64,000 nt of DNA from Candidatus Gottesmanbacteria bacterium UBA6580 (lineage in GTDB: Bacteria > Patescibacteriota > Microgenomatia > UBA10105 > UBA927), in NCBI GenBank assembly GCA_002433895.1, contig DJJA01000001.1, positions 15,438 to 79,437 of the forward strand. Direction: 5' to 3'. Both the position numbers and the translations under genes were made by a program. How positions within the stretch are numbered: position 1 is the first letter of the stretch; every line of letters starts with the position of its first letter. The notes below the pieces were generated by a model that did no database searches, had not been told where the DNA came from, and saw nothing but the letters and a program-made list of their open reading frames with translations. This document shows, piece by piece, positions 1-23,095 of this stretch.

Positions 1-3000
1 GATTTCTGGATTGCAAATAACAATGATGCGGATGGTGTCGATGACGATATATTCCAAATCGGCAAAGGCCTGGTAGTCGGCACCACCCCCCTCCTCACCC
101 TGACGACGACGGGATATGCCGGACTTGGCACAGCCACACCCAATGAAATGTTGAGTCTGATTACGAGCAGGGTTGTTGACCTTGCGGCCTTCTATGACGG
201 CGTGAACAACAAAATCTTCCAGATTGCCGACGGTGGAGAAATCGCTTTCAAACCCGCGGCGTTTGATACGGTAAAAACCTGTAGCGGCGCGTCATGTGTG
301 TCGGCAGATACGGGATCGTTTGCCAACAATACCACGGAGGCAAAATCCAACGCCGGAACACCTTTTGAAATACTCCCTGCTTCAGCTGCAGGATCAGGAT
401 CGTTCTATATCGGATTGGATCATCCATTCACCTCCATCAACATGGATATTGTTACCGCAAATGTCGGCATGTCTGCGATGGCAGTCGAGTATTGGAACGG
501 CGCGGCTTGGGCTACCGTCACACCGACCGATAACACGTCACTCCTTACGGTGGACGGTAGAATCACCTTTACGGCACCGACAGATTGGGCAACGACAACC
601 ATCGATAGCGTCACAAAGTACTACGTCCGTATCCGCAACTCGACCGGCACGATTACCACCGCGCCAACGGCATATTTCGTAAGCCCAACCACTAACACCC
701 GATTTGCTGTATACGCCCAAAGTGGTGATACGGATGCAGCGATTTATGTGAATGACAAAGGAAACGTGGGTATCGGCACAAATACTCCGACGAGTAAGCT
801 TACGATCGGCGGGGCGTCATCAACTATCACGAATTCAACCGGTGATATCACTATTAATGCTGCTTCTGATATTGTCGACTTTTCTGCGGACAGTCTCACC
901 GATATCACCAATATCGACATTGCCGGAAATTTTGGTGTCGATGATGCGACTCCGGATTATGGCATCGAAATATCTTCCGCTGCTTCCAGCGATCCGTCAT
1001 TCGCTCTCTCGGACGGAGATATCACCCACGGATTAACATCACTTGCCCAAACAGACGTTATACTTCACATTGTTCCCCTCTCTTCCACAGCAGGAGGCGC
1101 ACAAGTGACGGCAATCACAGAGAGTGACGCGCAAGCGTTAAGTATCCGGGGAGTCATCGGCTCCACCACTCCGGCAAATACCACACCTGCCATTAAAATC
1201 ATCGGTGGAAAAGCAAACGGAACCAGCATTGGCGATCTGGATGTAGACTCCACCCAGGGCGGCACCAATGCAGAAACGGTGTTCCAAATTGCCAACAATG
1301 ATGACACGGCAAGCTTTACCATGCTCGGCAATGGCAACATTGGTATTGGTAACCAGGTAACGCCGCTTGCTAAACTCCACGTCGTATCCAATCCCCTCTC
1401 CTCACTCTACACAACAGGTCGTGCTGCAGCCATTTTTGATCAATTTGAAAACCAGGATATTATCGCCGCCTCAGCATCAGGCGTCACCAAATTCAGAGTT
1501 GAAAATGATGGCGATGTCACGGGAGAACGGTTTGTGGATCTGGGTAACACGGCTGGCACCTATTATATCGATCCGGCAAACGGCACCACTTCTATCATGG
1601 TGGACGGCAACATCATCAGCGATGGTGCGTTTAGCATCACTTCAAACGCTACCAACGGTAACATCACCATCAATGCGGGAACTGGCGATATCATCCTGGG
1701 AACCGCCGACGGCACCGGTGCTGAAGTCTGTGTCAGCGTGGACGGTGCTACCTGTACCGGAAAAATCGACGCCGCCACTTTTGACCCTCCCTACACGATC
1801 GACGGGAAAAACTATGCTACGTATGCGCCCAGCATGACCGGTATCAAAGAAGAAACAGTCGGCAATATTCAGACTTCCACCTATGTCCCTGGCATCGGGT
1901 ACAAAGCAGAAATTAACTTCGGCAGTGTCCCGGTCGCATCCGATCTTTGGCTTTTCTCAAGAACTACCGATCTTAAAGTAAATGCCAACCAACTCGTGGT
2001 ACTGTTATCACCCTCTTCCGCTACCCGGGCTTGGTATGATTTTGATCCCGATGCGATGAGGCTGACGTTCTATACTTCGCGCCCAACAAATGTATCATAC
2101 CGCCTCACGGCGCCGAGGTTTGATTGGCAGAAATGGGCAAATACCCGCGCAGACGACGATCGCGCAGGTATGATGCTCAACTATGACAGCTCGTGGTTTA
2201 TGGGCGACGGATCGAACGGTACCCCTGAGGATCCACTTGCCAACCTCTCTATAGAAGAGGTGGATCCAACAACGATGACTTACCGTATCAAACACACCAA
2301 CGGTGACGTCATCGAGGATGCGGCCGCGTATGCCAGACTCCTGGTTGCCTCCATGCAAACAGGCATAATCAGTAGTATCAACGGCATATTTGGCAGAGTA
2401 GTTATTTCGGAAAGCGTCACGTCCCCGGTCGCTGAACTATCGAAAATCCGCACGGACACTATATCACCAATCGCAACCGAATCCGGCACTATAGATATCG
2501 CACTCAACAACACGCAGCGCCTAGAAATACAAAACACGGAAAGGGACGAAACCGTTACGTCATTTGATGCCCTCGGCAATGCCACATTCTCTGGCACCAT
2601 ATCCGCCGCAAGCGTTGATATTTCGGAAGATGCAACAATAGCCGGAGATATCACGAGCGACACCCTCACTACCCAAGAGGCAACCATCGCGGGTCAATTA
2701 TTTGCTGACCGCATTGTCACCAGTTTTGGCGATCTCGATACACGGTTCCAGTCTCTCGAAAATTCACTCAATACCTTAGGCACATCATCAGGACAACAAC
2801 CCACTCCACCACCATTAGGGTCATCCCTCGGAGACGCGGTAACGGTCAACGATGGGCATGTGACAGTAAATACCGACTTATTCGTCCTCGGAGACACGCT
2901 CCTTTCTAGCACGGCGATTACCGGCTCGCTCTTGATCGACGGCGTCATACGATTTACGCAAAATGTAATTGAAACAATCGGTGAAACGCTCTACATTCAA

Positions 3001-3624
3001 AAAAACAAACTTGCGAATGTTGATATTTTGGATGGCACCATCCTTATCGATATTTACAATAGAATATTTATGCGGGGCAACCTCGCCATCTCTGGTGATA
3101 CCACCGTCGGCGGCGTACTGGGAATAGGGACCATTTCCCCGGTTACCGGTGGCGATCTGACCATTAACCTAAGTAACGAAATTCCCAATCCATTCCTGGA
3201 AGAACAGGCGACGCCTTCATCCAGCTTTGCCGACCTCGTTATTAAAGGCGCAAACAATCAAACCGTTGCCGTTATTGACGCCTCTGGCAGCGCCACGTTT
3301 GCCGGCACCGTGGCGGCTGACTCGCTGGTTGCCTCAGGAAGTGCCACCGTACAGAAACTCAACATCAGTGCCGCCCCCACGTCCACTGAAAGCGCGGTAC
3401 CGTCAAATACCGTTGGCACCGGCACCCTTCCAGGGTACTTTACCGAAGTAACCATACTCTCAAGCCAAGTTGCAGCCGACTCTCTTGTGTATCTCACTCC
3501 ACTTTCCAGCACCGGCAATCAGGTATTATATGTGAAAGAAAAACTACCAGGTGTCGGATTTATCGTCGCTATCGACACATCGCTGACGACACCGATAAAC
3601 TTTAACTGGTGGATTATTAATTAA
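1..3624 (+). CDS. Large fibre-like repeat surface protein, 5' partial. The reading frame is open from base 1; the ORF track's M at 148 is internal.
   Basis: Frame 1 has no stop from position 1 to the TAA at 3622-3624. Composition is Gly/Thr/Ser/Asn-rich with recurring motifs such as GNVGIGTNTPTSKLTIGG and GNGNIGIGNQVTPLAKLHV, typical of phage tail-fibre-like or beta-helical surface fibres. The stop lies 2 nt before the next ATG at 3627. Confidence 0.7.
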   Translation, partial: DFWIANNNDADGVDDDIFQIGKGLVVGTTPLLTLTTTGYAGLGTATPNEMLSLITSRVVDLAAFYDGVNNKIFQIADGGEIAFKPAAFDTVKTCSGASCVSADTGSFANNTTEAKSNAGTPFEILPASAAGSGSFYIGLDHPFTSINMDIVTANVGMSAMAVEYWNGAAWATVTPTDNTSLLTVDGRITFTAPTDWATTTIDSVTKYYVRIRNSTGTITTAPTAYFVSPTTNTRFAVYAQSGDTDAAIYVNDKGNVGIGTNTPTSKLTIGGASSTITNSTGDITINAASDIVDFSADSLTDITNIDIAGNFGVDDATPDYGIEISSAASSDPSFALSDGDITHGLTSLAQTDVILHIVPLSSTAGGAQVTAITESDAQALSIRGVIGSTTPANTTPAIKIIGGKANGTSIGDLDVDSTQGGTNAETVFQIANNDDTASFTMLGNGNIGIGNQVTPLAKLHVVSNPLSSLYTTGRAAAIFDQFENQDIIAASASGVTKFRVENDGDVTGERFVDLGNTAGTYYIDPANGTTSIMVDGNIISDGAFSITSNATNGNITINAGTGDIILGTADGTGAEVCVSVDGATCTGKIDAATFDPPYTIDGKNYATYAPSMTGIKEETVGNIQTSTYVPGIGYKAEINFGSVPVASDLWLFSRTTDLKVNANQLVVLLSPSSATRAWYDFDPDAMRLTFYTSRPTNVSYRLTAPRFDWQKWANTRADDDRAGMMLNYDSSWFMGDGSNGTPEDPLANLSIEEVDPTTMTYRIKHTNGDVIEDAAAYARLLVASMQTGIISSINGIFGRVVISESVTSPVAELSKIRTDTISPIATESGTIDIALNNTQRLEIQNTERDETVTSFDALGNATFSGTISAASVDISEDATIAGDITSDTLTTQEATIAGQLFADRIVTSFGDLDTRFQSLENSLNTLGTSSGQQPTPPPLGSSLGDAVTVNDGHVTVNTDLFVLGDTLLSSTAITGSLLIDGVIRFTQNVIETIGETLYIQKNKLANVDILDGTILIDIYNRIFMRGNLAISGDTTVGGVLGIGTISPVTGGDLTINLSNEIPNPFLEEQATPSSSFADLVIKGANNQTVAVIDASGSATFAGTVAADSLVASGSATVQKLNISAAPTSTESAVPSNTVGTGTLPGYFTEVTILSSQVAADSLVYLTPLSSTGNQVLYVKEKLPGVGFIVAIDTSLTTPINFNWWIIN

Positions 3625-3626
3625 CT

Positions 3627-6600
3627 ATGAAACATCGGCATAAGGCACATACAATGGTGATAAAAATTGCACGGCACGCCGTCCGCTGGCTGCTCCATCG
3701 CAACATAATCCTTGTACTCATACTCGCCATTCCCCTTGCTGTCGCGGCTCCTTCGCTTGTCCGAATGATCACGGCAAAAAACACATCGGTAGTGAAAAAA
3801 TCGCCCTTTTCCGACCGGTTCACCATCCGTCATGCCTCAGGCGATCTCACGAGTAACCTGGAAGCCAAAAAACAGGACGTTTCCCTCACGGTGTCCCGGG
3901 GTCAAGCCAAGGCGACCTTTGCCATGGCAGTTTCCCCAGCTAACACTACGCACACGAAAGATGAAATTGTGTACACCGCCAAAGACGGTCTCCGTATGCG
4001 CTACCAACCGATCCAAAACGGCATCAAAGAAGAAATCATCCTCGATAAACCCATGGGAAGAAGCACCTTCCTCTCCACCCTTTCGGTCGCAAATGTGCGC
4101 CCCATCGTCACCCCGGAAGGACAGATTGTCTTCGTCGATCAAAACGGTACGTACCAATTCCACATAATGCAGCCCTTTGCCATCGACGCCAACGGCACGG
4201 TCACCCGGAATATCCGTTACCGGCTCACCGACGCCGCTGATGTTTATAAAAAACTATCGAAAGATATAAATCAGCATACCTATATATCACAACAGCTCCT
4301 CGGGCCGGTGCCGCAACCGTCAGGGCCAGGTATCGCCGAACGCTCCTATATGCTCGTACTCGACATGGATCCGTCATGGCTATCGGATCCTTCACGCGCG
4401 TATCCCGTCACGATCGACCCGACGGTCGTCCATGATACGACCAGCGAGTTTGCGACCGGCACCATGAACCGTGTTAAAGACACCGGCAGCGGCAGTGCAC
4501 CTTATCTAGAGTCATACTACCAACCGCTTATCGCAGACAGACACACTGTGGGTCTTTGGCACCTGGATGAAGCGAGCGGCGATGCGACCGACGCAAGCGG
4601 CAACAGCCTCACGGGCACAAACACAGGTAGCACCGCAACCACGGGCGTTTTTAGTAACGGCAGAAGTTTTGATGGATCCGGAAACAAAATTATCGTTGCT
4701 CACTCTGCAAAATTTCCTACGGTAGAGCGCACCGTAGAAGCATGGGTAAAAATCACAAGCACTACTTCTGCAGATAGACTACTAATGGGCGAGGGATCTG
4801 AGCATTGGTTTACCTATGACGGAGCCACCTGGGGTTGCGCCGCAGGTCAAATCGGGTATATGGTCTGGATCAACTCGGCATGGTCATGTGTAAGCGGTTT
4901 TACCCCAAGCCTTAACCGCTGGTATCACATTGCCGGTACCTATAACGGCAACACGATCCAACTCTATGTTGACGGTGTGTTGATAAACAAAGTATCCAAC
5001 ACAGGCTCTTTTACGCCAGCGTCAAACTCATTTGACATAGGTAACTACTCAGGCGGCGGATATGGGCTCCCCATTGTGCTTGATGACGTAAGACTCAGCA
5101 ATGTCGCCCGATCAGCAGAAGACATCAAGTCAAGCGCTTCTCGGAGATCCCACGCAATCTACATGTCTGATATTCTCGATCTCACCGGCGGCACCTCCAG
5201 CCTTATGCAATGGAACTCTTTTTCATGGAACGAGCTTGGAGTGGCAACCGGCGACGGTGAAAGCCTCAAAGACACCACAAGCCTATACGCACAGTGGAAT
5301 CTGAACGAAACTAGTGGCACAACCGCAGTCAATGCCGCCGGCTCATGCGGAGTGTCATGTAATGGCACACTTACCAATTTTGCCTCCACCAGCTCCCAAG
5401 ACCAGGCTGCGGGCACCGGATGGACAACGGCTAATAAGCGTTGGGGGGCGGGTTCGCTTATGTTTGACGGCGCCGACGATTGGATCAGTGTCGCAAGTAA
5501 CCCGCTTACTAACTCGTATGTCACCATCAATACCTGGATAAAGACATCTAAAATTTCAGCTTCTCGAACGATTATCGATATAAACACGGCAGCAAATGCC
5601 GGAGGCATGCTGCTTAATTTTCGTTCAGACTGTCCAATGTCATTAGGTATTGCCATGAGCTGGAGAGATGCCGCTTGGGTTTCGGGTGCCTATCCATTTA
5701 TTTGTGGCTCAAGAATTGACGATGGCCGATGGCACATGGTTACCGGCGTCTATGACAGTCAAGGAGCTAAATTATATGTTGATGGTATCCTCGCAAACTC
5801 CAGCACTCGAAACTCAACACTGAGTAATCAAAGTCAAACAATCAATATCGGCAAACTCGTGAATCAAGCAGCAGGTGCAGGATATAACTTTAATGGAGTC
5901 ATTGATGCCACTACGATATACTCCCGCGCCCTCACAGCAGCTGAAATTTTAAGTAATTACAACGCCAGTAACATTGAGTTTCAAACCCGTGTGGGAAACT
6001 CTTCCAGTCCCGATGACGGCAGCTGGGAGGCCTGGCGTCCGACAACAAGTGAAACACTTATTGAGGGTTTTGAAAACAATGAGGATAACACGCGGGTCTA
6101 CGAAATGGGCTTTAGTGCGCCTGGTATCAATCCTACTTGGGCAAAGAAAAACAACGCGGTTCCCGCCAATTCTGATACCACCACCAGCGATGGCCGTATT
6201 CCCCTGGGCACAAATGGCACTGGTGATGACACACACGCTTATGGTCCCGCACTACTCAAAGACGGAGCAACCTATAAAATGTGGTATTCGGGTTCTGATG
6301 GCGCAACACTACGCATTTATTACGCAACCAGTAGCGACGGCCTTACCTGGACCAAATACAACAATGCCATCCCGAGCACATCAGATACCACCACCAGCGA
6401 TGGCCGTATTCCCCTGGGCACAAATGGCACTGGTGATGACGCCCATACAGGGTATCCTACAGTGATAAAAGATGGATCCACTTATAAAATGTGGTATTCG
6501 GGACACGATGGAAGCGCGTGGCGTATCTTCTATGCGACCAGCAGCGACGGCCTCACCTGGACCAAATACAACAATGCGATTGAATCACCAAGTAATACAA

Positions 6601-9600: not shown

Positions 9601-10007
9601 TCGACTCCCCTTCCAATGGAGCGACAAACCGCATCCTAACCGTGAGCCTGAAAACTACGGGAACTGATACCGACGGTGATTACCTCCGCTACAAAATCGA
9701 ACTCTGTACAAATGTAGGGATGACCGCAAACTGCCAAACCTTCGACCAAACAAGTAGCCAAACCGGCTGGAGCGGTCAAAACACCCAAACAAGCACGGCA
9801 TACACCTCTGGCACGCAGGCGACGTACACAATCCAAACCCCCCTCACCGTAAGCACCACCTATTATTGGCGAAGCTACAGCATCGATCCCGGCGGCACCA
9901 ACACCTGGTCGCCGACCCAAGGTGCCCCCTACTCCTTCACCACGACCGATGGGACGACCAATTTCACCGTAGAAGGACTGCAACTTGATGGCATCAATCT
10001 AGACTGA
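3627..10007 (+). CDS. Giant membrane-anchored surface protein with four LamG (concanavalin-A-like) domains, a 5-bladed beta-propeller and C-terminal FN3-like modules
   Basis: N-terminal signal-anchor (ILVLILAIPLAVAAPSLV). Four LamG_3-like cores: LWHLDEASGDATDASGNS, QWNLNETSGTT, LWHLDETGGTGAYIKDSSGNANHG, FWHFDETISPVKDAAGKVNGS. Five ~70-aa blades of the form DGSTYKMWYSGxDGxxWRIYYATSSDGLTW (Asp-box-like SxDGxTW). Fibronectin-III-like C-terminus (APSAPTNILTE...YYVRFAFWDD). Confidence 0.85.
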   Translation: MKHRHKAHTMVIKIARHAVRWLLHRNIILVLILAIPLAVAAPSLVRMITAKNTSVVKKSPFSDRFTIRHASGDLTSNLEAKKQDVSLTVSRGQAKATFAMAVSPANTTHTKDEIVYTAKDGLRMRYQPIQNGIKEEIILDKPMGRSTFLSTLSVANVRPIVTPEGQIVFVDQNGTYQFHIMQPFAIDANGTVTRNIRYRLTDAADVYKKLSKDINQHTYISQQLLGPVPQPSGPGIAERSYMLVLDMDPSWLSDPSRAYPVTIDPTVVHDTTSEFATGTMNRVKDTGSGSAPYLESYYQPLIADRHTVGLWHLDEASGDATDASGNSLTGTNTGSTATTGVFSNGRSFDGSGNKIIVAHSAKFPTVERTVEAWVKITSTTSADRLLMGEGSEHWFTYDGATWGCAAGQIGYMVWINSAWSCVSGFTPSLNRWYHIAGTYNGNTIQLYVDGVLINKVSNTGSFTPASNSFDIGNYSGGGYGLPIVLDDVRLSNVARSAEDIKSSASRRSHAIYMSDILDLTGGTSSLMQWNSFSWNELGVATGDGESLKDTTSLYAQWNLNETSGTTAVNAAGSCGVSCNGTLTNFASTSSQDQAAGTGWTTANKRWGAGSLMFDGADDWISVASNPLTNSYVTINTWIKTSKISASRTIIDINTAANAGGMLLNFRSDCPMSLGIAMSWRDAAWVSGAYPFICGSRIDDGRWHMVTGVYDSQGAKLYVDGILANSSTRNSTLSNQSQTINIGKLVNQAAGAGYNFNGVIDATTIYSRALTAAEILSNYNASNIEFQTRVGNSSSPDDGSWEAWRPTTSETLIEGFENNEDNTRVYEMGFSAPGINPTWAKKNNAVPANSDTTTSDGRIPLGTNGTGDDTHAYGPALLKDGATYKMWYSGSDGATLRIYYATSSDGLTWTKYNNAIPSTSDTTTSDGRIPLGTNGTGDDAHTGYPTVIKDGSTYKMWYSGHDGSAWRIFYATSSDGLTWTKYNNAIESPSNTTGTQGRIPLGSSGGDTSQTVAPTVIKDGSTYKMWYSGSDGTNWRIYHATSSDGLTWTKYDNSIPAASDSTSTNGRIPLGSTGVDTVHSYIFSVIKDGPVYKGWYSMQDASNTYVGYVSSLDGLSWRKYHNAAPTASNTTSTNGRIARGASGGDVTHAFSPAVIKDGAVYKVWYAGYDSTNWRIYHASMKSITLSQNTESVIKQESSYSEKFTTAPQADGSVVGLWHLDETGGTGAYIKDSSGNANHGTPTGTTLSMGKFNKARTFDGNNDYIDLGTGATFDFGNNGPFTHSGWVNITTMLNYAGFVSKVVTGRGGTYSYMTVVMADGSMAAYTGAAWVTPCPAGSVSAGRWQHIAFSYDGTNITGYVNGVSCGSIAFTYTDNTAHNLYIGSWYSPSTIYDFNGQIDEVVTSKAARSGEEIAEEYRLGRDHYMTKTISSTDLSGKKSLPFNIAADRPGTYLQTVVGESDYVNYQPDSSTGGFWHFDETISPVKDAAGKVNGSITGTTSVQGKIGRGRYFNGTSDYVAIADVPTLNPSSQITAEAWIRTTGTGSNLAILGKTTGCASSGYLLWLNENGVGAGLPGFFIGAGAWLDGTIAVNDGKWHHIVGTFDGSTARLYIDGALNASGARSGTLTSTTQLQIGGQTTGAGCTGGLWFPGDIDEVRISSTARSAAEIRQAFEIGLRSHAVTIDFAAALDSGNLITGSGDTGFTIDATTHGLGSKGSGLYLSDKLIVRENYDGTEYIAQGTVTAVTTSTGAVTVASWDTGSTFPSGGYTANASIFKWQREFWNIDSGAPDDAVDAVTNLTLRLTDGIEGRTIWLDDFRSAGDYLTTPAGSTITSSTGNRYIQYRAILHSSDEAVSPQLTSVTLDYRTNVAPSAPTNILTEGAANPTGVIDTTPEFSAIYVDGDSGDIANKYRIQVDDNSNFLSVLWDSGASGTSMANCTAGNRCADVSYAGSSLTQGTTYYVRFAFWDDDNTEGAWSSESALFTMNAAQSAPTLDSPSNGATNRILTVSLKTTGTDTDGDYLRYKIELCTNVGMTANCQTFDQTSSQTGWSGQNTQTSTAYTSGTQATYTIQTPLTVSTTYYWRSYSIDPGGTNTWSPTQGAPYSFTTTDGTTNFTVEGLQLDGINLD
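6121..7170 (+). repeat. Intragenic tandem DNA repeats, period 210 bp (70 aa), encoding the five beta-propeller blades of the LamG giant protein
   Basis: A 57-nt string gataccaccaccagcgatggccgtattcccctgggcacaaatggcactggtgatgac occurs identically at 6174-6230 and 6384-6440. agcgacggcctyacctggaccaaatacaacaatgc recurs at ~6333, ~6543 and, degenerate, ~6751. Confidence 0.8.
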
Positions 10008-10110
10008 TGTCACCTTCGATGCATTTAGATATATTACAAGCAATAATGATAGAGTTGACAACGCCCGGATTAAATAATGTATTCTTTACAAGAATGATCA
10101 TGAAGGTTGT

Positions 10111-10671
10111 GTGTATTCTGCCATGAAATCATCTGCCAAACAGGCATCACAAAGTCAAGTTGTTTCCGCTCTCATTGCGATTGCAGTTATAGTCGGTGCA
10201 ACGGCGTTTGCCTGGCTATGGATTCAGAAACAACAACCCACCGTTGATGAAACTGAAACCCAGGAGCTTGCGGCCGGAGAAGCAACTCCTCCACCTACTC
10301 CAACACCAACGCCTACCAAATTGTTCCACGGCAAAGATACGTATATTGTCAGCCGGGGCTCCCAAGCCACGGGTCCGAATGTCTCGGAAATCACCTTTGA
10401 TCCACTTGATCCGGCAGTGGGAGGACAACAAATCATTTCAGTAAAAGCCTCTTACAGTACGGCTATTTCTGATGTGTCTGTCAAACTCAGAACGGACACC
10501 AAAACAACAACACTCAAACTTGAACTTGCCGAGGGAACAAACCTTGGTGGCACATGGAAGACCACCTGGACTATCCCGGAAACCTATCTTTATAACTATG
10601 CGGCAACCATAGAGGCAACAAGCGGCAACGAAGTGACCACCATCCCAGTGATTATTCGCGAAAGAAAATGA
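10111..10671 (+). CDS. Small membrane-anchored protein with PT-rich linker (alternative start 10123)
   Basis: TM helix VVSALIAIAVIVGATAFAWLWI, then a PPPTPTPTPT linker and a ~110-aa beta-rich domain. The stop overlaps the next start as ATGA at 10668-10671. Confidence 0.6.
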   Translation: MYSAMKSSAKQASQSQVVSALIAIAVIVGATAFAWLWIQKQQPTVDETETQELAAGEATPPPTPTPTPTKLFHGKDTYIVSRGSQATGPNVSEITFDPLDPAVGGQQIISVKASYSTAISDVSVKLRTDTKTTTLKLELAEGTNLGGTWKTTWTIPETYLYNYAATIEATSGNEVTTIPVIIRERK

Positions 10672-11468
10672 AAAAATATTTTTCAGTCGTCATTTTGCTC
10701 GTTTTATTCCTCGTAAGCCTCCGCTTTGATACGACCAAGGTACAAGCCGCCTGTAATTGGACGCCATCCAACGGCACGGTAACTGCCACCACCTGTGGCA
10801 TTGACGGTCAATCCAGCGAGGCGTACGACTATTCAGCAGGAACTGATGACGCGTCAAATGGTGTGACCCTGGTCATTCCTAATGGTGTCACCGTAACCCT
10901 CAATACCGGTTCCGTCGGAACCCCTACGACGTTGTTTGTTGGCTCTATCAGCATTACCGGCACCGGATCGCTGGTTGCCTCCTCCAATTATGTTCAAATC
11001 AGGAGTGGATACAAATGTTATGTAACCGATGCAGATGCAGACGGCTATAGCCCAGCACCCAATACCTGCTACGATTCTCCAGCTGCAGGCAGAATACGTA
11101 AATTTTCTTCAGGGTTTCACCTAGGAACAGACTGTGGTGATAGTGCAAATGCAGCCTACCCTGGATCCACGACACCGCGGGGCGTAACGTTTACCAATGG
11201 TGTTAACCCATCATTGACCGGTGACTGGAACTGTGATGGTGTAGAAACAAAAACATACCCCACTGCAACCTATACCTGCAGCGCATGTACCAATGGCTCC
11301 GGCTATGCCAGTTATCGTAATACGACAAACGGGTTTCTCACCACGGTACCTAACTGCGGCGCTTCCGGCACTTACTACACCGTAACCAACTCTACGTGCC
11401 GGGATCCGGCAGTGGCAAACTGCAGCACCAGTGTTTCCACCTCTACGGTAACCCAGACCTGCCTGTAA
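10668..11468 (+). CDS. Secreted Cys-rich protein with DADADGY-type putative metal-binding motif
   Basis: Signal peptide MKKYFSVVILLVLFLVSL...VQA. About 20 Cys residues. The segment CYVTDADADGYSPAPNTCYD...DWNCDGVE resembles the MopE-like putative metal-binding motif. The ATGA overlap with the upstream gene indicates translational coupling. Confidence 0.65.
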   Translation: MKKYFSVVILLVLFLVSLRFDTTKVQAACNWTPSNGTVTATTCGIDGQSSEAYDYSAGTDDASNGVTLVIPNGVTVTLNTGSVGTPTTLFVGSISITGTGSLVASSNYVQIRSGYKCYVTDADADGYSPAPNTCYDSPAAGRIRKFSSGFHLGTDCGDSANAAYPGSTTPRGVTFTNGVNPSLTGDWNCDGVETKTYPTATYTCSACTNGSGYASYRNTTNGFLTTVPNCGASGTYYTVTNSTCRDPAVANCSTSVSTSTVTQTCL

Positions 11469-11744
11469 AAGGACGACAACAATCCCATTGCTATTGATCT
11501 CACCAATATATAATTTGGCACGCATGGTGTGACGGATATACCTCCATTGCGAGCATATGGATCATAGAGGCATACCGGAGTACAACACCAATAGTACACG
11601 AGCGAAACTCAAATCCGTCAAAACCACCCGTTTACCTTAAAACTAGCGGTACTATACTTAGTGGAATACGTAAGAGAAGGTACATGTACGGCCTACCAAT
11701 GATGCCTACAAACGAGTTTGAGAAGATCACGGTACAACAATTAC

Positions 11745-12281
11745 TCACTCAGAACACACCGCGTAGTCAGAGCCTGATAACCCGCTGCATATAGCGCCAC
11801 AGCGCGACCATGAGGCAGCGATCTCCGCGTCGGACACGTTCTCCAGCGATCCCTTTAGACAAAAGTCGGCACCGCTGTTTGCATCATTATAAAACATGCT
11901 GGTTCCTAACTCTCCCGGAAATTTTGTCATATACACCGTCTCACAGCCCGTACCTCCTGCCGCAAAATCCACCGAACATCCAGCAGGGCACAATGTATCA
12001 CCGTCAGCACCACACCCTGCAATATAATTTAACTTGCCCACGCCGCCATTTTGAGAAGCGGGATAGATTTTATAATCGTTATAATACAACTGCAATGCTG
12101 TTTTGAGCTGGTTTAATTCACCTTTCCTCCGCGCGTCACGCGCCCTGGTTCTTGCTCCCAAAAAATTTGGCAAAGCCAATCCGATAATCGTTGCGATTAC
12201 CGCGATGGCCACGAGCAGTTCTATGAGACTAAAACCATCTATTTTGTTTCGTTTATTAGTATTAGATATCGTTTTTTTCAT
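11745..12281 (-). CDS. Type IV pilin / pseudopilin-like protein
   Basis: Class III (prepilin) signal: KIDG|FSLIELLVAIAVIATIIGLAL, with Phe at +1 and Glu at +5. Hydrophobic N-terminal helix followed by a Cys-containing C-terminal domain. Confidence 0.8.
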   Translation of the reverse strand: MKKTISNTNKRNKIDGFSLIELLVAIAVIATIIGLALPNFLGARTRARDARRKGELNQLKTALQLYYNDYKIYPASQNGGVGKLNYIAGCGADGDTLCPAGCSVDFAAGGTGCETVYMTKFPGELGTSMFYNDANSGADFCLKGSLENVSDAEIAASWSRCGAICSGLSGSDYAVCSE

Positions 12282-12292
12282 GTTTGATATGT

Positions 12293-12838
12293 TTAAGGGG
12301 TAGTGTTACTACTGCTTATGCCATACGTACACGCGACCGCGCTATCCAATGAGCAATCGGTGCCAGTGTATCCAGATTGATTAACATTGTCGCCTTCATC
12401 CAGCGTATTTTCCAGTTTAGCATAAATTCTGTAGGAATCCGTTCCCGCCTCATAGAAATATGTTTGGCTACTCAAGGGATCTTCCGGAGTAAGCACCATA
12501 TACAAGGTTCCGTTGGTGTCTTTAAATTGCCCGCCCCACTCACATACTTGAACATCACCACACCCGGGACTCGCGCAACAACCGACCATCTCACCCGCAC
12601 TATTACTTGTTGGATACCGGCCTTTATCACTGTAGTATGTCTCAAGCGCGGTCGTCAGATTGCGCAAATCATTTTTCCGCCGGTTATCGCGGCCGCGGCG
12701 CGAACTCGATGCATACGTACCGGTTGCGATAGCCACAAGTACTGCAAGTATCACCATAACAATCAACAATTCCATTAATGTGAAGCCGTCTCGATAACGT
12801 AATTTTTTCATCATATCTTTCATAGTATAGCTCATCAT
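12293..12838 (-). CDS. Type IV pilin-like protein. Start moved to the internal ATG; the track ORF extends to 12937.
   Basis: Prepilin motif RYRDG|FTLMELLIVMVILAVLVAIATG. The ATG at 12838-12836 sits 1 nt after the TAA of the upstream pilin gene. The 5' extension in the ORF track would overlap that gene by ~100 nt. Confidence 0.75.
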   Translation of the reverse strand: MMSYTMKDMMKKLRYRDGFTLMELLIVMVILAVLVAIATGTYASSSRRGRDNRRKNDLRNLTTALETYYSDKGRYPTSNSAGEMVGCCASPGCGDVQVCEWGGQFKDTNGTLYMVLTPEDPLSSQTYFYEAGTDSYRIYAKLENTLDEGDNVNQSGYTGTDCSLDSAVACTYGISSSNTTP

Positions 12839-12839
12839 A

Positions 12840-13562
12840 TTATTGCGCACACCAATAACTTGCGCTACCGCATAATCCCTGACAGTCTGATTCAGCAAAG
12901 GACCGGGGACACCCGTAACTTGCAGGATCACCGACATTATTACATGTTCCAGGGCTCACCACCTGACCACCTGAAAGCGTTCCCGGGCGGCAGGCGTATG
13001 GCCCGTCATACGCGGGTGTAGGCGTTAATGAAGGCGTCGGTGTGGTGCCTGGTACAAACCCGGGAGCCGTTACAGTCGTGCCGGTCGCCAAACAGTAATT
13101 CCAATACGCGCCCCATCCGCACCCTTGTTCTGCATGACAGCCAAGCGTCGTAATATCGGGATCCGCCCAATCCTGCAACTTGGTGCAGACCCGGTTTCCA
13201 AGACATACATTCGTCTCGCTATCCGGCTGGTATAAATACGGCTCCTGGGTCGTAGGATCGCAGGGAATTTTATCTAAATACGGACTCAATGCGTTACCTT
13301 CGCAACTGTTAAGAATTTCCATAGAAGGATAACAATTATTGTCGTTATAGTACTCTTCAAATGCCCGCCTGATATTGGCGATATCAGTTTTCCGTTGGGC
13401 GTCCTGCGCGCGGAAAACGCTCCGTTTCCAATTAACCAACAAAAATAATACTGCGAGGATGGCGATAATAACGATGACAATAAGCAACTCCGCAAGCGTC
13501 CAGCCGGCCTGAGGTGATCGGCGGGCGTGCTTTACGAGGTGGGCAGACAGGATCCGTTTCAT
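12840..13562 (-). CDS. Type IV pilin-like protein, Cys-rich C-terminal domain
   Basis: Prepilin-like leader ending QAG|WTLAELLIVIVIIAILAVLFLL with Glu at +5. It is the first gene of a three-gene pilin tandem. Confidence 0.7.
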   Translation of the reverse strand: MKRILSAHLVKHARRSPQAGWTLAELLIVIVIIAILAVLFLLVNWKRSVFRAQDAQRKTDIANIRRAFEEYYNDNNCYPSMEILNSCEGNALSPYLDKIPCDPTTQEPYLYQPDSETNVCLGNRVCTKLQDWADPDITTLGCHAEQGCGWGAYWNYCLATGTTVTAPGFVPGTTPTPSLTPTPAYDGPYACRPGTLSGGQVVSPGTCNNVGDPASYGCPRSFAESDCQGLCGSASYWCAQ

Positions 13563-13631
13563 CGCAAATACCTTTCGTCCTCTAGTATGGCAAAACTATA
13601 GAACAAACACAATGAGACGCACTACTGCCAT

Positions 13632-15665: not shown

Positions 15666-16534
15666 AATACCCAACCCTCTCTATCATCACCGTGACAAAA
15701 AACAGATCCAAACTGTTATATATTGCGCTTACTTCACTCATGGGGCAATGCTTACCGGGAGACGAAATTATCGTTGTGGATGCCTCTACTGATGACACGC
15801 CTGCGGTAGTCGCGCACCTCGCCAAAAAACTCCCTATCGTGTACGTACGCTATCTCAAAAAAGGTTATCCTGCTTTTTACAACAAAGCTGCCCGGCGCGC
15901 CAAGGGTGATATCCTCGTTTTTTTTGACGACGACTGCAAAGCCTCCCCAGCATTCCTTTCCCGTATCAGACAAGCCCATAGAAAACATCCAAACGCCGTC
16001 ATCCAGGGGCTCACGCACAGCGTCCCCCGCGGCAATCTATATGTCGATATTATGGGCGACCACTATAATAACTGGCTTGCCACAATGTCACTATCCAAAA
16101 ATACGCTTAAAACATTTGACAGCAAAAACGCGTCCATACCCCGTGCGTTATTTTGGAAATATGGAGGGCTATCGCCGCGCATGCACCGGGGAAGTGAAGA
16201 TATTGAGCTCGGATTACGCCTCAGACGGGCGGGTGTCACTATTTATCTCGACCGGTCTATCGTCGCCTCCCATCACGAGCGGACTACGCTTCATGGATTT
16301 CTTTTTCAACATCGGCGGTTTGCGGCAAGTGAAGGGTATCTTGATAAGATATTACCTCCATCCGAACGCCTTGGCGTTATCCCCCCAAAAAAACTCCTGC
16401 TCCATATTCGAAGTTTTTTTCGCCGGGAGGTCAATTTCATACAGCATGGTAAATGGAAAGAGGCTATCGGTCATGTACTTCTCTATATAGCTCTTGCATG
16501 TATAAGAATTTGGGGGTACGCTAGGCATCGATGA
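15662..16534 (+). CDS. GT2-family glycosyltransferase
   Basis: LSIITVTKNRSKLL...EIIVVDASTDDT...GDILVFFDDDC (DxD). ATGA overlap with the upstream gene. Confidence 0.8.
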   Translation: MKYPTLSIITVTKNRSKLLYIALTSLMGQCLPGDEIIVVDASTDDTPAVVAHLAKKLPIVYVRYLKKGYPAFYNKAARRAKGDILVFFDDDCKASPAFLSRIRQAHRKHPNAVIQGLTHSVPRGNLYVDIMGDHYNNWLATMSLSKNTLKTFDSKNASIPRALFWKYGGLSPRMHRGSEDIELGLRLRRAGVTIYLDRSIVASHHERTTLHGFLFQHRRFAASEGYLDKILPPSERLGVIPPKKLLLHIRSFFRREVNFIQHGKWKEAIGHVLLYIALACIRIWGYARHR

Positions 16535-16986
16535 AACCCCGGATCGGCATCATCACATCAAAGGGAGGGCACGTCTATCAAATGCACCGCCTAAAACCCT
16601 GGTGGAGCAAGTACGATCACTTTTGGGTAACATTTTCCGGTGAAGATGTCGCTTCGCTGCTCAAAAAGGAACGTGTTTATTACGGCTATTATCCAGAAAC
16701 CAGGAATATGTATAACGCCATCCGGCACCTGGGTCTCGCATGGCACATCCTCCGTACAGAACGCCCCACGCTCCTCATTAGCTGCGGCGCAGGAATCGCG
16801 CCGCCATTTTTTATTATCGGCAAATTACTCGGCATAAAAACGGTATTTATCGAAGTATTCGACCTTCTCAAACACCCCAGTCTTACCGGTCGCATCCTTT
16901 CACCTTTTGTCGATCATATACTCGTGCAACATCCTACTCAAAAAAAATTTTATCCACGCGCGCACTATAAAGGAGCGATATTATGA
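16531..16986 (+). CDS. Alg14-like membrane-anchor subunit of a bipartite glycosyltransferase (Cps14F/EpsE-like)
   Basis: IGIITSKGGHVYQM (SGGH motif), then PTLLISCGAGIAPPFFIIGKLLGIKTVFIEVFDLLKHPSLTGRIL, matching the Alg14-like ES..R....SLTGK signature. ATGA overlap with upstream GT2. Confidence 0.75.
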   Translation: MKPRIGIITSKGGHVYQMHRLKPWWSKYDHFWVTFSGEDVASLLKKERVYYGYYPETRNMYNAIRHLGLAWHILRTERPTLLISCGAGIAPPFFIIGKLLGIKTVFIEVFDLLKHPSLTGRILSPFVDHILVQHPTQKKFYPRAHYKGAIL

Positions 16987-17100
16987 CCGTGTGGTAGAAT
17001 TTCGGCACGCTTTAGTTCATTGCGTATTATATGGATAATCTAAACAATATGGGATATATACAAAGAAAGGAGACTGAAATTTTGCCAGCGTCATAACGCA

Positions 17101-17610: not shown

Positions 17611-17632
17611 GCCTCATATACCCTTCTCTATC

Positions 17633-17654
17633 GCGCCCGCTTTCACTGCGGCGC
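17633..17654 (+). other. GC-rich hairpin (7 bp with one bulge, 7-nt loop) in the Alg13–radical SAM intergenic spacer, without a U-tract
   Basis: GCGCCCGC-tttcact-GCGGCGC. No following T-run, so it is not a classical intrinsic terminator. It could be an RNA processing or attenuation element, or coincidental. Confidence 0.25.
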
Positions 17655-23040: not shown

Positions 23041-23095
23041 TGGGTTGATTCTACCACATCAATATTTTCCCAAAGAAATTTGGGGAAATCCCGTA

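What the first reader, a model, noticed from the sequence alone, without database searches (positions are those of the whole stretch)
1..13562. Surface-appendage block: fibre-like giant protein plus LamG/propeller/FN3 giant protein, then two coupled small secreted proteins and a three-pilin tandem
The two giant genes are separated by 2 nt and are likely co-transcribed. The second has a signal-anchor, four lectin-like LamG domains, a 5-bladed propeller with Asp-box-like SSDGLTW motifs and FN3 modules, which is an adhesin or carbohydrate-binding layout. The first gene encodes a >1,200-aa fibre-like protein with phage-tail-fibre-like G-N-V/I-G-I-G-T repeats.

Immediately downstream are a PT-linker membrane protein and a Cys-rich DADADGY-motif secreted protein joined by an ATGA overlap. 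Three divergent type IV pilin genes follow. No pilus assembly ATPase, platform protein or prepilin peptidase lies in the window, so the pilins depend on machinery encoded elsewhere.

Together these plausibly form a host- or surface-attachment apparatus.
Basis: partly seen in the sequence, partly recalled or inferred. Interest (0 to 1): 0.55.

Follow-up and report, generated by a model that had tools for sequence, protein, structure and literature searches.

The report
Giant collagen fibre, lectin giant, pilins
This is a chromosomal, non-phage cluster of cell-surface genes from an ultra-small Microgenomates (CPR) bacterium, and it matters because its giant membrane-anchored collagen-like fibre belongs to a large family I found described nowhere, with a DNA-binding-type domain inside the cell and pilin genes beside it in most relatives.

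Summary

Domain calls for gene 2 are confirmed:
- Four LamG domains (E 2.5e-86).
- A five-bladed propeller (AF2 pLDDT 95.8; GH130/GH43-type fold).
- One FN3-like Ig module.

The prophage alternative is refuted. Leucyl-tRNA synthetase lies upstream, and phage collections hold no relatives.

Gene 1 is cut by the window edge. Full length it is 2,574 aa, in this order:
- A cytoplasmic integrase-SAM-like domain.
- One transmembrane helix.
- 336 uninterrupted Gly-X-Y triplets, about 290 nm if triple-helical.
- A fibre whose GNVGIGT motifs match Bdellovibrio "mosaic adhesive trimer" prey-recognition fibres (E 3.6e-7).
- A conserved 650-aa C-terminal module.

That module defines about 1,900 protein clusters. 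Nearly all complete members start with an integrase-SAM-like or MerR-type domain followed by a membrane helix.

Of 69 related genome loci with at least 3 kb of downstream sequence, 61% have pilin genes just downstream of the fibre gene. In 32% these form the same opposite-strand triplet.

The best reading is a contact and adhesion apparatus. A signalling or nucleoid-tethering role for the cytoplasmic domain is possible but untested.

The parts
1..3624 (+). Gene 1, the C-terminal 1,207 aa of a 2,574-aa fibre protein. The missing N-terminal 1,367 aa lie upstream of the window: an integrase-SAM-like domain, a transmembrane helix and 336 Gly-X-Y triplets.
   Evidence: Open frame to the left edge. 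Full gene at L001:2274-9998. Pfam Collagen 3e-130 and Phage_int_SAM_1 1e-9. Single GXY run at aa 286-1293.
664..1335 (+). MAT / tail-fibre-like beta-prism segment of gene 1, carrying the GNVGIGTNTPTSKL-type capping-loop motifs.
   Evidence: The family profile hits Bdellovibrio MAT fibres 8ond (E 3.6e-7), 8ojn and 8oml. The same region gives a weak hit to a Synechococcus phage tail fibre. The motif is defined in PMC10769870.
1678..3621 (+). Conserved C-terminal 648-aa module of gene 1. It includes the invariant motif DPPYTI-GK-YATY--SMTG(I/V)KEE and a terminal beta-sandwich ending FNWWIIN.
   Evidence: 1,899 representative clusters at E<=1e-3, with the match nearly always at the C-terminus of 1,500-4,300-aa proteins. 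Invariant columns. AF2 is confident only for aa 60-150 and 575-648.
3627..10007 (+). Gene 2, a 2,126-aa membrane-anchored lectin-like giant.
   Evidence: Starts 2 nt after the gene-1 stop. Pfam and PHROG hits. The N-terminal 640-830 aa are 35-51% identical in distant loci.
4533..5969 (+). LamG domains 1 and 2 of gene 2 (about aa 303-502 and 566-781).
   Evidence: Laminin_G_3 and Laminin_G_2. PHROG stretches.
6099..7181 (+). Five-bladed beta-propeller of gene 2 (aa 825-1185), with S-x-D-G-x-T-W motifs and one conserved Asp per blade.
   Evidence: The domain is absent from the orthologue in the close relative L002, so it is a swapped-in module.
7248..8642 (+). LamG domains 3 and 4 of gene 2.
   Evidence: Laminin_G_3, best stretch aa 1510-1666. 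PHROG stretch aa 1438-1658.
9240..9563 (+). FN3-like Ig module of gene 2 (Ig_Rha78A_N).
   Evidence: E 6.2e-12, above the gathering cut-off.
10123..10671 (+). Gene 3, a 182-aa protein with an N-terminal transmembrane helix, a PT linker and a beta-rich domain of about 110 aa.
   Evidence: Homologues lie directly downstream of the fibre gene in 20 of 69 loci. No family hit.
10668..11468 (+). Gene 4, a 266-aa secreted protein with 12 Cys and the motif CYVTDADADGY. It overlaps gene 3 by ATGA.
   Evidence: Homologues follow gene 3 in 12 loci. No family hit.
11745..12281 (-). Type IV pilin 1 (178 aa, G|FSLIE, 8 Cys).
   Evidence: N_methyl 1.2e-6, TIGR02532.
12293..12835 (-). Type IV pilin 2 (180 aa, G|FTLME, 6 Cys).
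   Evidence: N_methyl 4e-8, TIGR02532. Called start taken.
12840..13562 (-). Type IV pilin 3 (240 aa, G|WTLAE, 14 Cys).
   Evidence: N_methyl 7e-5, TIGR02532, T2SSG-like.

Best explanation
The block is a chromosomal cell-surface contact and adhesion gene cluster of a Gottesmanbacteria-like Microgenomates (CPR) bacterium. Steps are marked as shown or inferred.

**Gene 1 (the fibre).**
- Shown: the domain order is a cytoplasmic integrase-SAM-like domain, one transmembrane helix, 336 Gly-X-Thr-rich collagen triplets, MAT-type fibre segments, then a conserved C-terminal module.
- Inferred: the protein sits N-in in the membrane and trimerises.
- Inferred: it projects a stalk about 0.3 micrometre long, roughly a cell diameter for such bacteria.
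- Inferred: the stalk is probably O-glycosylated by the adjacent glycosyltransferase cluster, as in Bacillus BclA.

**Gene 2 (the lectin-like giant).**
- Shown: four LamG domains, a five-bladed propeller and an FN3-like module sit on an N-terminal membrane anchor. The middle domains are swapped between close relatives.
- Inferred: it is translationally coupled to gene 1, supplies carbohydrate-binding specificity and diversifies quickly.

**Genes 3 and 4.**
- Shown: they are conserved small envelope partners of the fibre.
- Inferred: their role is assembly or anchoring; nothing tests this.

**The pilin triplet.**
- Shown: three pilins lie convergent to gene 4. This is the most conserved neighbour of the fibre family.
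- Inferred: the pilins are assembled by type IV pilus machinery encoded elsewhere. Pilus extension and retraction would work together with the static fibres to capture and hold a host cell or surface.

**The cytoplasmic domain.**
- Shown: across the family it is either integrase-SAM-like or MerR/HTH_17.
- Inferred: the fibre is also coupled to DNA or gene regulation inside the cell.
For: **Domain architecture.**

**Propeller fold.**

**MAT relationship.** The family profile matches solved Bdellovibrio MAT fibres at E 3.6e-7 to 4.6e-5. MAT fibres are experimentally shown surface adhesins for prey glycans (PMC10769870).

**Not a prophage.** LeuRS lies upstream. IMG/VR holds no relatives. INPHARED gives only two weak local hits.

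**Conserved neighbourhood.**
- The same gene order occurs in L002 and L003.
- A fibre plus a LamG giant 2 nt apart occur in L004 at 33% and 41% identity.
- In L009 the order is fibre, g3, g4, Wzy-like gene, pilin, LamG giant, at about 30% identity.
- L010 carries two fibre modules.

**Counts across 69 GTDB loci with at least 3 kb downstream.**

| Feature downstream of the fibre gene | Loci |
|---|---|
| At least one pilin | 42 |
| Opposite-strand pilin triplet | 22 |
| g3 homologue | 20 |
| g4 homologue | 12 |
| LamG giant | 15 |

Pilin ORFs number 0 in 162 kb upstream and 88 in 622 kb downstream.

**Family-wide N-terminus.** Of 62 long representatives, 46 are SAM-like and 4 are MerR/HTH_17.

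**Domain swapping in gene 2.**

**Glycan cluster next door.**

**Pili in related bacteria.** Type IV pili mediate host attachment in cultivated Patescibacteria (PMC11880426).
Against: - No expression, localisation or binding data exist for any of these proteins.
- Trimerisation could not be modelled. The monomer AF2 model of the C-terminal module is poor (pLDDT 52.6), and Foldseek gives nothing at E<=1e-3.
- The family's C-terminal module is conserved while the middle varies. This is the opposite of MAT fibres, whose tips vary, so the distal end may not be the specificity determinant.
- Genes 1-4 and the pilins are on opposite strands, so linkage rests on neighbourhood only.
- LamG giants accompany the fibre in only 15 of 69 loci.
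- The 3-kb collagen repeat comes from a short-read assembly, so its length may be wrong. Related contigs regularly break there.
- Whether the genome encodes PilB, PilC and PilD was not testable with these tools.
Confidence: 0.6

Rival explanations
1. The fibre gene is part of a prophage or a phage-derived tail module, and the block is viral cargo.
For: - Motif-level similarity to phage tail fibres: Synechococcus phage tail fibre, 26% identity, E 3e-4.
- Sub-threshold Pfam hints to K1-lyase_C and LtfC.
- Weak Foldseek hits to tailspikes.
- Some distant family members carry Peptidase_S74.
Against: - Upstream is leucyl-tRNA synthetase. Downstream are pilins and a glycan cluster.
- No PHROG hit for the gene-1 part, g3 or g4.
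- No relative in 2.9 million IMG/VR contigs.
- The same chromosomal neighbourhood, with LeuRS and ComEA/ComEC nearby, occurs in related genomes.
- 191 loci were found across Microgenomates species.
Confidence: 0.03
2. The fibre and the lectin-like giant are structural envelope components, not host-adhesion devices. They would form a glycosylated 'nap' or glycocalyx scaffold like the BclA collagen layer of Bacillus exosporium, and the pilins would be unrelated neighbours.
For: - The collagen is Thr-rich in the Y position (248 of 336 triplets), as in BclA (the BclA comparison is my own knowledge).
- The block abuts a 37-kb glycan and envelope cluster with Wzy_C, PMT_2, YfhO and many glycosyltransferases.
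- The conserved C-terminal module suggests a conserved self-ligand rather than a variable host ligand.
Against: - The non-random, polar association with pilins argues against unrelated neighbours: 0 pilin ORFs upstream versus 88 downstream.
- The fibre segments are homologous to fibres with shown prey-binding function.
- Rapid domain swapping in gene 2 is typical of recognition proteins.
Confidence: 0.15
3. The primary role of gene 1 is signalling. It would be a membrane-tethered DNA-binding protein, analogous to ToxR or CadC, whose giant extracellular fibre senses contact or tension. It would control transcription, or tether the nucleoid, with or without proteolytic release.
For: - Two unrelated DNA-binding folds occupy the same N-terminal cytoplasmic position across the family. 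These are integrase-SAM-like (46 of 62, 21 in tandem pairs) and MerR/HTH_17 (4 of 62). Each is followed by a transmembrane helix.
- No recombinase catalytic domain is present.
Against: - DNA binding is untested.
- SAM-like domains alone bind DNA weakly in known recombinases (my own knowledge).
- No cleavage site or partner regulator was identified.
- This reading is compatible with the adhesion model rather than exclusive of it.
Confidence: 0.15
4. The three pilins form a short pseudopilus, of the type II secretion or Com type, rather than an adhesive pilus. Its job would be to export or deploy the giant fibre through the envelope, or to take up DNA.
For: - The pilins best match GspG and ComG-type models, although below the cut-offs.
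- They are never next to pilus ATPase genes in the 80 loci.
- ComEA and ComEC lie near the locus in relatives.
- A fixed set of three pilins resembles a minor-pilin tip set (my own knowledge).
Against: - The pilin-family scores are all below the equivalog cut-offs.
- Genes 1 and 2 have their own Sec-type membrane anchors.
- There is no evidence on secretion.
Confidence: 0.07

Closest known systems
Mosaic adhesive trimer (MAT) fibre proteins of Bdellovibrio bacteriovorus (Bd2133, Bd1334, Bd3182 and others; Caulton et al. 2024, PMC10769870)
   Same: - Repeated beta-prism fibre segments carry the capping-loop motif (GN-V/I-G-I-G-T-x-x-P-x-x-K-L).
- The family profile matches the solved MAT chains 8ond, 8ojn and 8oml at E 3.6e-7 to 4.6e-5.
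- Both are about 1,000 aa or more, are fibre-like, and are remotely related to phage tail fibres.
- Some relatives of gene 1 end in Peptidase_S74, like S74-type MATs.
- Both occur in a small bacterium that lives off other cells.
   Different: - MATs have a signal peptide and an invariant N-terminal docking domain of about 130 aa, with variable C-terminal tips.
- Gene 1 instead has a cytoplasmic DNA-binding-type domain, a transmembrane anchor, a 1,008-aa collagen stalk and a conserved C-terminal module, with the variation in the middle.
- The MAT paper's list of diverse MAT proteins contains no Patescibacteria.
Bacterial collagen-like surface proteins (Bacillus BclA, Streptococcus Scl1/Scl2, Pasteuria fibres)
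   Same: - A long uninterrupted Gly-X-Y region (Pfam Collagen 3e-130).
- A Thr-rich Y position, as in the GPT repeats of BclA (the comparison is my own knowledge).
- Neighbouring sugar-biosynthesis and glycosyltransferase genes.
   Different: - Scl proteins are anchored C-terminally by LPXTG. BclA is anchored by its N-terminus to the exosporium basal layer.
- Gene 1 is a type II membrane protein with a cytoplasmic domain. In this it is more like eukaryotic transmembrane collagens (XIII, XVII) or the scavenger receptor MARCO (my own knowledge).
- Its 336 triplets are several-fold longer than those of BclA or Scl.
Type IV pilins and type II secretion pseudopilins
   Same: - The class III signal motif G|(F/W)-x-L-x-E is followed by a hydrophobic helix in all three.
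- Pfam N_methyl and TIGR02532 score above their cut-offs.
   Different: - None reaches the equivalog cut-off of any named pilin (GspG, PilA, ComGC).
- The C-terminal domains are Cys-rich (6-14 Cys).
- No assembly genes are nearby.
GH130 / GH43 / GH117 / GH32 five-bladed beta-propeller enzymes and 'DUF377' proteins
   Same: - A five-bladed fold (Foldseek probability 1.0, TM 0.55-0.65).
- A Pfam Glyco_hydro_130 hit at 41 bits, above the 26-bit cut-off.
- Homologues annotated 'GH43/DUF377'.
   Different: - Identity to the enzymes is only 13-17%.
- The conserved residues repeat five-fold, one Asp, Trp and Ser-x-D-G motif per blade.
- No unique catalytic set is visible, so a lectin-like role is as likely as catalysis.
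PilY1 / PilC-type pilus-associated adhesins with their minor-pilin operon (Pseudomonas, Neisseria)
   Same: A small set of pilin genes sits next to very large non-pilin proteins that contain a beta-propeller. Both are presumed to act in contact and adhesion. This is a functional analogy from my own knowledge.
   Different: - No sequence relationship was detected; no PilY1/PilC family appears in the Pfam results.
- Genes 1 and 2 have their own membrane anchors.
- The pilins are on the other strand.
ToxR / CadC-type membrane-bound transcription regulators
   Same: The architecture is the same: an N-terminal cytoplasmic DNA-binding-type domain, a single transmembrane helix and an extracytoplasmic domain.
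   Different: - The DNA-binding fold differs: integrase-SAM-like or MerR/HTH_17 rather than OmpR-type winged helix.
- The outside part is a fibre of 2,300 aa.
- DNA binding is untested.

Membership tests
MAT fibre superfamily (Bdellovibrio) | Fibre segments with the capping-loop motif V-G-G/N-pi-x-x-P-x-x-x-L, homologous to solved MAT fibres | tested here: met
   The profile of the gene-1 family hits 8ond, 8ojn and 8oml at E 3.6e-7 to 4.6e-5, aligned on the GNVGIGT..P..KL repeats.
MAT fibre superfamily (Bdellovibrio) | Signal peptide followed by the invariant beta-rich N-terminal domain of about 130 aa | tested here: not met
   Gene 1 starts with Phage_int_SAM_1 (aa 18-107) and has a transmembrane helix at about aa 225-247. 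It has no N-terminal signal peptide.
MAT fibre superfamily (Bdellovibrio) | Intertwined homotrimer | not testable with these tools
   Only monomer AF2 was available, and the model was poor (pLDDT 52.6). The collagen region implies a trimer by analogy.
Bacterial collagen-like proteins | Long uninterrupted Gly-X-Y repeat | tested here: met
   336 consecutive triplets at aa 286-1293. Pfam Collagen 3e-130.
Bacterial collagen-like proteins | Cell-wall sorting signal (LPXTG) or exosporium-targeting N-terminus | tested here: not met
   The C-terminus ends ...PINFNWWIIN with no LPXTG. The anchor is an N-terminal transmembrane helix.
Tyrosine recombinase / phage integrase | N-terminal SAM-like core-binding domain | tested here: met
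   Phage_int_SAM_1 at E 1e-9, 39 bits against a cut-off of 22.3. PHROG 1 integrase at 2.4e-8.
Tyrosine recombinase / phage integrase | C-terminal catalytic domain (Pfam Phage_integrase, R-H-R-Y) | tested here: not met
   No PF00589 hit in the 2,574-aa protein. The SAM-like domain is followed by a linker, a transmembrane helix and collagen.
Type IV pilins | Prepilin leader ending in Gly, Glu at +5, hydrophobic N-terminal helix | tested here: met
   G|FSLIE, G|FTLME and G|WTLAE. N_methyl and TIGR02532 score above their cut-offs for all three.
Type IV pilins | Processing by a prepilin peptidase and assembly by PilB/PilC encoded in the genome | not testable with these tools
   None is in the window. 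The rest of the genome could not be read.
LamG / concanavalin-A-like lectin domains | Profile match to the Laminin_G family | tested here: met
   Laminin_G_3 in four stretches at E 2.5e-86. Laminin_G_2 at 6e-18.
GH130/GH43-type glycoside hydrolases or phosphorylases | Five-bladed beta-propeller fold | tested here: met
   AF2 pLDDT 95.8. Foldseek top hits are GH137, GH130, GH117 and GH43.
GH130/GH43-type glycoside hydrolases or phosphorylases | Family-specific catalytic acid/base residues in the central pocket | tested here: inconclusive
   Only five-fold repeated conserved residues are seen, including one Asp per blade. Model coordinates could not be inspected.
Phage tail fibre / prophage module | Membership of a phage protein family, and neighbouring virion genes | tested here: not met
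   No PHROG hit for the gene-1 part. No IMG/VR relative. Two weak INPHARED hits. LeuRS lies upstream.
TafC (haloarchaeal Tat-fimbria subunit) | NCBIfam NF052521 equivalog score of at least 410 bits | tested here: not met
   100.9 bits, covering the LamG part only. TafC is identified.

The most novel reading that the evidence does not exclude
Gene 1 represents a large family that I found described nowhere. It has about 1,900 clusters at 50% identity and is spread across Microgenomates.

In this reading the family's giant trimeric surface fibres are physically coupled, through one membrane helix, to a cytoplasmic DNA-binding domain. That domain is integrase-SAM-like or MerR/HTH_17. The fibre would therefore be more than an adhesin. 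It would be a contact or tension sensor that tethers or regulates DNA in an ultra-small episymbiont, working with a dedicated three-pilin set. This would be a new class of outside-in signalling device.
Probability: 0.25. Interest if true: 0.85.

Novelty: new variant of a known kind. Interest (0 to 1): 0.62.

Why it matters
How CPR/Patescibacteria find and hold their hosts is largely unknown outside Saccharibacteria, and Microgenomates have no cultured member. This locus offers concrete candidates.
- **The fibre.** It is MAT-like and about a cell diameter long.
- **The lectin giant.** It shuffles its domains between close relatives.
- **The pilin triplet.** It tracks the fibre gene across the class.

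Three points stand out.
- MAT-type fibres were so far shown for the predator Bdellovibrio. Finding them in CPR extends the idea that fibres related to phage tail fibres are a general tool of bacteria that live on other bacteria.
- The family-wide fusion to a cytoplasmic DNA-binding-type domain is unusual. It gives a testable hypothesis for contact sensing.
- The 336-triplet bacterial transmembrane collagen is an extreme case of a prokaryotic collagen.

Tried and rejected
- **Prophage reading.** Rejected. LeuRS lies upstream, there are no PHROG hits, IMG/VR holds no relatives, and INPHARED gives only two weak hits.
- **Single-sequence search of the gene-1 part against PDB.** Nothing found. Only the family profile found the MAT fibres.
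- **AF2 monomer of the C-terminal 648 aa.** Poor, at pLDDT 52.6. Its Foldseek search gave nothing at E<=1e-3, and the weak tailspike hits are leads only.
- **Gene-1 N-terminal 130 aa against PDB.** Nothing significant.
- **Second FN3 module in gene 2.** Not supported by pairwise BLAST (E 5.1) or by Pfam.
- **TafC membership.** Rejected; the score is a quarter of the cut-off.
- **DADADGY motif of gene 4 as a known metal-binding family.** No Pfam hit even at E<=10.
- **Genes 3 and 4.** No family in Pfam, NCBIfam or PHROGs.
- **Right-hand giant ORF as a paralogue of gene 1 or 2.** No similarity.
- **Literature.** Searches for collagen-like, integrase-SAM-like or giant LamG proteins in CPR returned nothing relevant.
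- **PilB, PilC and PilD elsewhere in the genome.** Could not be checked.
- **The S-x-x-x-x-K spacing in the invariant SMTGIK motif.** It recalls the S74 catalytic SDxxxK. The predicted fold after it is a beta-sandwich rather than an S74 chaperone, so I do not claim it.

Full report
**1. What is in the sequence**

- Gene 1 is an open frame from base 1 to 3624 on the plus strand.
- Gene 2 (3627..10007) starts two bases after the gene-1 stop (TAA-CT-ATG).
- Gene 3 (10123, or GTG 10111, to 10671) overlaps gene 4 (10668..11468) by ATGA.
- Three genes with prepilin leaders follow at 11745..12281, 12293..12835 and 12840..13562.
- All three pilins are on the minus strand, convergent with gene 4. They cannot share a transcript with genes 1-4.
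- The longer ORF to 12937 for the middle pilin overlaps its neighbour. It is not the start called on the source contig.

**2. Domain checks on gene 2**

- Pfam gives Laminin_G_3 in four stretches (E 2.5e-86). It also gives Glyco_hydro_130 (41 bits against a cut-off of 26) and Ig_Rha78A_N (E 6e-12).
- The propeller region (aa 825-1185) has 1,351 homologues. Most are stand-alone proteins of 350-450 aa annotated 'GH43/DUF377'.
- With a 46-sequence alignment, AlphaFold2 gives five four-stranded blades at pLDDT 95.8.
- Foldseek against the PDB returns GH137, GH130, GH117, GH43 and GH32 propellers, at probability 1.0, TM 0.55-0.65 and 13-17% identity.
- The conserved residues repeat once per blade: an Asp, a Trp-Tyr pair and the S-x-D-G-x-T-W motif. 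No unique catalytic set is visible. A five-site lectin is therefore as likely as an enzyme.
- Only one FN3-like module is confirmed.
- The N-terminus has one hydrophobic segment (aa 21-50) without an obvious signal-peptidase site. A membrane anchor is therefore likely.

**3. Gene 1 is much more than the window shows**

Looking up the exact gene-2 protein found the source contig, ERZ761592 NODE_21 (128.6 kb). The window is identical to it over the 20 kb they share.

Gene 1 is 2,574 aa on that contig. Its parts, in order:

| Position | Feature | Evidence |
|---|---|---|
| aa 18-107 | Phage_int_SAM_1, E 1e-9, above cut-off; no recombinase catalytic domain anywhere | |
| after aa 107 | Pro/Val-rich linker | |
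| about aa 225-247 | Transmembrane helix | |
| aa 286-1293 | One uninterrupted run of 336 Gly-X-Y triplets; Thr in the Y position in 248 of them | Pfam Collagen 3e-130, |
| aa 1368-2574 | The 1,207 residues that lie in the window | |

- As a collagen triple helix the repeat would span about 290 nm.
- The N-terminal domain is a cytoplasmic-type fold with no signal peptide before it. Everything after the helix is surface-type. An N-in, type II topology follows, but this is an inference.

Upstream of gene 1 is leucyl-tRNA synthetase on the other strand.

Supporting that conclusion:

- The PHROG library has no match for the gene-1 part, g3 or g4.
- IMG/VR has no relative.
- INPHARED yields only two weak local hits to a Synechococcus phage tail fibre, at 26% identity and E 3e-4.

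**4. What the fibre is related to**

- Single-sequence searches of the PDB find nothing.
- A profile built from 19 family members matches three solved Bdellovibrio proteins: Bd2133 (8ond, E 3.6e-7), 8ojn (4.6e-6) and 8oml (4.6e-5).
- These proteins are the 'mosaic adhesive trimer' (MAT) fibres of Caulton et al. 2024. They are intertwined trimeric beta-prism fibres on the predator surface and are related to phage S74 tail fibres.
- MAT fibres have variable tips, one of which was shown to bind prey glycans. That paper defines the capping-loop motif V-G-G/N-pi-x-x-P-x-x-x-L.
- Its table of diverse MAT proteins has no Patescibacteria.
- 'Phage-tail-fibre-like' is therefore right at the level of remote homology of a cellular fibre family.
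- Sub-threshold Pfam hints (K1-lyase_C, LtfC) and weak Foldseek hits to tailspikes point the same way. They are leads only.

**5. The gene-1 family**

- The last 648 aa of gene 1 were scored against 1.84 billion representative proteins. The search found 1,899 clusters at E<=1e-3 and 230 at E<=1e-30.
- The match lies almost always at the very C-terminus of proteins of 1,500-4,300 aa.
- The motif DPPYTI-GK-YATY--SMTG(I/V)KEE is invariant.
- I examined 62 long representatives that begin with Met:
  - 46 have an integrase-SAM-like N-terminus, 21 of them with two copies in tandem.
  - 4 have a MerR/HTH_17 domain.
  - 12 have neither. Eight of these are plainly truncated gene calls, and three resemble a divergent SAM-like member.
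- A Pfam spot-check agreed. Of eight N-termini tested as SAM-like, seven matched Phage_int_SAM_1, four of them above its cut-off. The eighth, one of the divergent look-alikes, did not match. Both MerR/HTH_17 N-termini were confirmed.
- A hydrophobic helix follows at aa 70-380 in about half of them by a strict hydropathy threshold.
- Independent assemblies carry SAM-like plus collagen in one ORF (P0179, P0180). The fusion is therefore not a chimera.
- Two unrelated DNA-binding folds occupy the same cytoplasmic position. This argues that DNA binding, rather than one particular fold, is what is selected. That is an inference.
- Unlike MATs, this family conserves both ends and varies the middle. 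The middle can hold collagen, LamG insertions as in P0005, or beta-helix as in P0025.

**6. Do the genes belong together?**

- Close relatives (L002 and L003, 81% identity) keep the same order: gene 1, gene 2, g3, g4, then the three pilins.
- L004 (33% identity) has the fibre followed 2 nt later by a LamG giant. The first 640 aa of that giant are 41% identical to gene 2.
- L010 has a fibre, g3 and g4. A second fibre follows, with a MerR N-terminus, collagen and H_lectin, and then a LamG giant 2 nt later.
- L009 (about 30% identity) has, in order: fibre, g3-like (E 9e-28), g4-like (E 7e-9), a Wzy-like membrane protein, a Cys-rich pilin and a 2,945-aa LamG giant.
- A scan of one genome per GTDB species found 191 confirmed loci. 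The records name Gottesman-, Woese-, Roizman- and Collierbacteria and other Microgenomates.
- In the 69 kept loci with at least 3 kb downstream of the fibre gene:

| Feature downstream of the fibre gene | Loci |
|---|---|
| At least one pilin | 42 (61%) |
| Three pilins on the opposite strand | 22 |
| g3 | 20 |
| g4 | 12 |
| LamG giant | 15 |
| At least one of these | 54 |

- Pilin ORFs number 0 in 162 kb upstream and 88 in 622 kb downstream.
- The pilin set is thus the most faithful neighbour of the fibre.
- No ORF in these flanks, nor any frame of the window, has the PilB/PilT Walker A signature.
- The rest of the window carries glycan and envelope genes and no pilus machinery. These include Wzy_C twice, PMT_2, YfhO, many glycosyltransferases, DegT, a dTDP-sugar isomerase and PIG-L.
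- Gene 2 diversifies by domain swapping. Against its L002 orthologue the N-terminal 800 aa are 51% identical and the C-terminal 650 aa 68% identical. The propeller is missing there, replaced by LamG repeats.

**7. How it most likely works**

- Shown: the architecture, the relationship to MAT fibres and the conserved neighbourhood.
- Inferred:
  - Gene 1 trimerises and stands about 0.3 micrometre off the cell on a collagen stalk.
  - The stalk is probably glycosylated. The Thr-rich triplets beside a glycosylation cluster are as in Bacillus BclA (my own knowledge).
  - Gene 2 presents glycan-binding domains.
  - g3 and g4 are envelope accessories.
  - The pilins, assembled by machinery encoded elsewhere, supply dynamic attachment as in cultivated Patescibacteria.
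  - The cytoplasmic domain may link contact to DNA or transcription.
- I put 0.6 on the adhesion and contact apparatus overall.
- I put about 0.25 on the stronger claim that the fibre is also a membrane-tethered DNA-binding sensor.

**8. Novelty**

- Each part is of a known kind: collagen-like protein, MAT/tail-fibre-like fibre, LamG lectin, GH-type propeller, pilins.
- Three things appear undescribed in the searched literature:
  - the family-wide architecture of DNA-binding-type domain, membrane helix, giant fibre and conserved C-terminal module;
  - the size of that family;
  - its tight, polar linkage to a pilin triplet in Microgenomates.
- I therefore rate it a new variant of a known kind, of above-average interest.

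**9. Limits**

- There are no functional data.
- Trimer modelling was not available.
- The collagen repeat length comes from a short-read assembly, and related contigs often break there.
- Organism labels in many GTDB records are as written by the depositors.
- Presence of the pilus machinery in this genome is untested.

Noticed in passing
window 50827..63999 (-), running off the right end: A giant ORF of at least 4,390 aa. In a related contig (L008, JGI Ga0074422_100438) the corresponding gene is called at 14,281 aa with no Pfam hit on record. Here there is only a weak methyltransferase-like stretch at aa 1004-1107. It shows no similarity to gene 1 or gene 2.
   Followed up: partly
window 13632..50845: A glycan and envelope cluster of about 37 kb lies right next to the block. 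It holds two Wzy_C O-antigen-ligase-like proteins, several GT2 and GT4 glycosyltransferases, and PMT_2 and YfhO-type membrane glycosyltransferases. It also holds DegT aminotransferase, a hexapeptide acetyltransferase, methyltransferases, a dTDP-sugar isomerase, NPCBM and PIG-L. It may glycosylate the Thr-rich collagen stalk.
   Followed up: partly
window 16531..16986 and 17101..17610: Adjacent Alg14-like and Glyco_tran_28_C (Alg13-like) genes form a split two-subunit glycosyltransferase arrangement. This is best known from eukaryotic N-glycosylation.
   Followed up: no
window 17724..18737: A radical SAM / SPASM protein is embedded among the glycosyltransferases.
   Followed up: no
window 23706..24506 (+): A small leucine-rich-repeat protein (LRR_8, LRR_4) sits inside the glycan cluster. 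It is another possible surface or recognition protein.
   Followed up: no
L001:3130-6150 (upstream of the window) and the contig ends of L002, L003, L009 and many of L011-L090: Public assemblies very often break inside the fibre gene at the collagen or other repeats. Many family members are therefore deposited as N-terminally truncated 'partial' proteins, or as fragments named 'site-specific integrase, partial'.
   Followed up: partly
L004:2443-4698 and L010:1-2510: ComEA (SLBB, HHH_3) and ComEC (Competence, Lactamase_B) DNA-uptake genes lie within a few kb of the fibre locus in two related genomes, next to LeuRS in one. They are probably also just upstream of this window.
   Followed up: no
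L010:17814-25583: A second fibre module lies directly after the first in one genome. It has a MerR/HTH_17 N-terminus, collagen and H_lectin (1,612 aa), and is followed 2 nt later by a LamG giant. Several other genomes have two fibre loci on one contig (for example L013/L031 and L022/L024), so the family is multi-copy.
   Followed up: partly
L081 (JAVZXS010000014.1) and L048 (CAZOBL010000059.1): Two loci with the fibre C-terminal module (27-30% identity) sit in records labelled as archaea: Candidatus Micrarchaeia and uncultured Thermoplasmatales. This could reflect mis-binning or transfer between episymbiont lineages. Many other hits are labelled 'uncultured Gammaproteobacteria', which looks like a placeholder label.
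   Followed up: no
window 1..64000: GC skew is negative in every 2-kb bin of the plus strand across the whole window. No tRNA genes and no Rfam family hits occur in 64 kb.
   Followed up: no
window 1783..1854 (gene 1 aa 595-618 in window numbering): The motif DPPYTIDGKNYATYAPSMTGIKEE is invariant across family members down to about 30% identity. Its S-x-x-x-x-K spacing recalls the catalytic SDxxxK of S74 tail-fibre chaperones, but the predicted fold after it is a beta-sandwich. Its role is unknown.
   Followed up: partly
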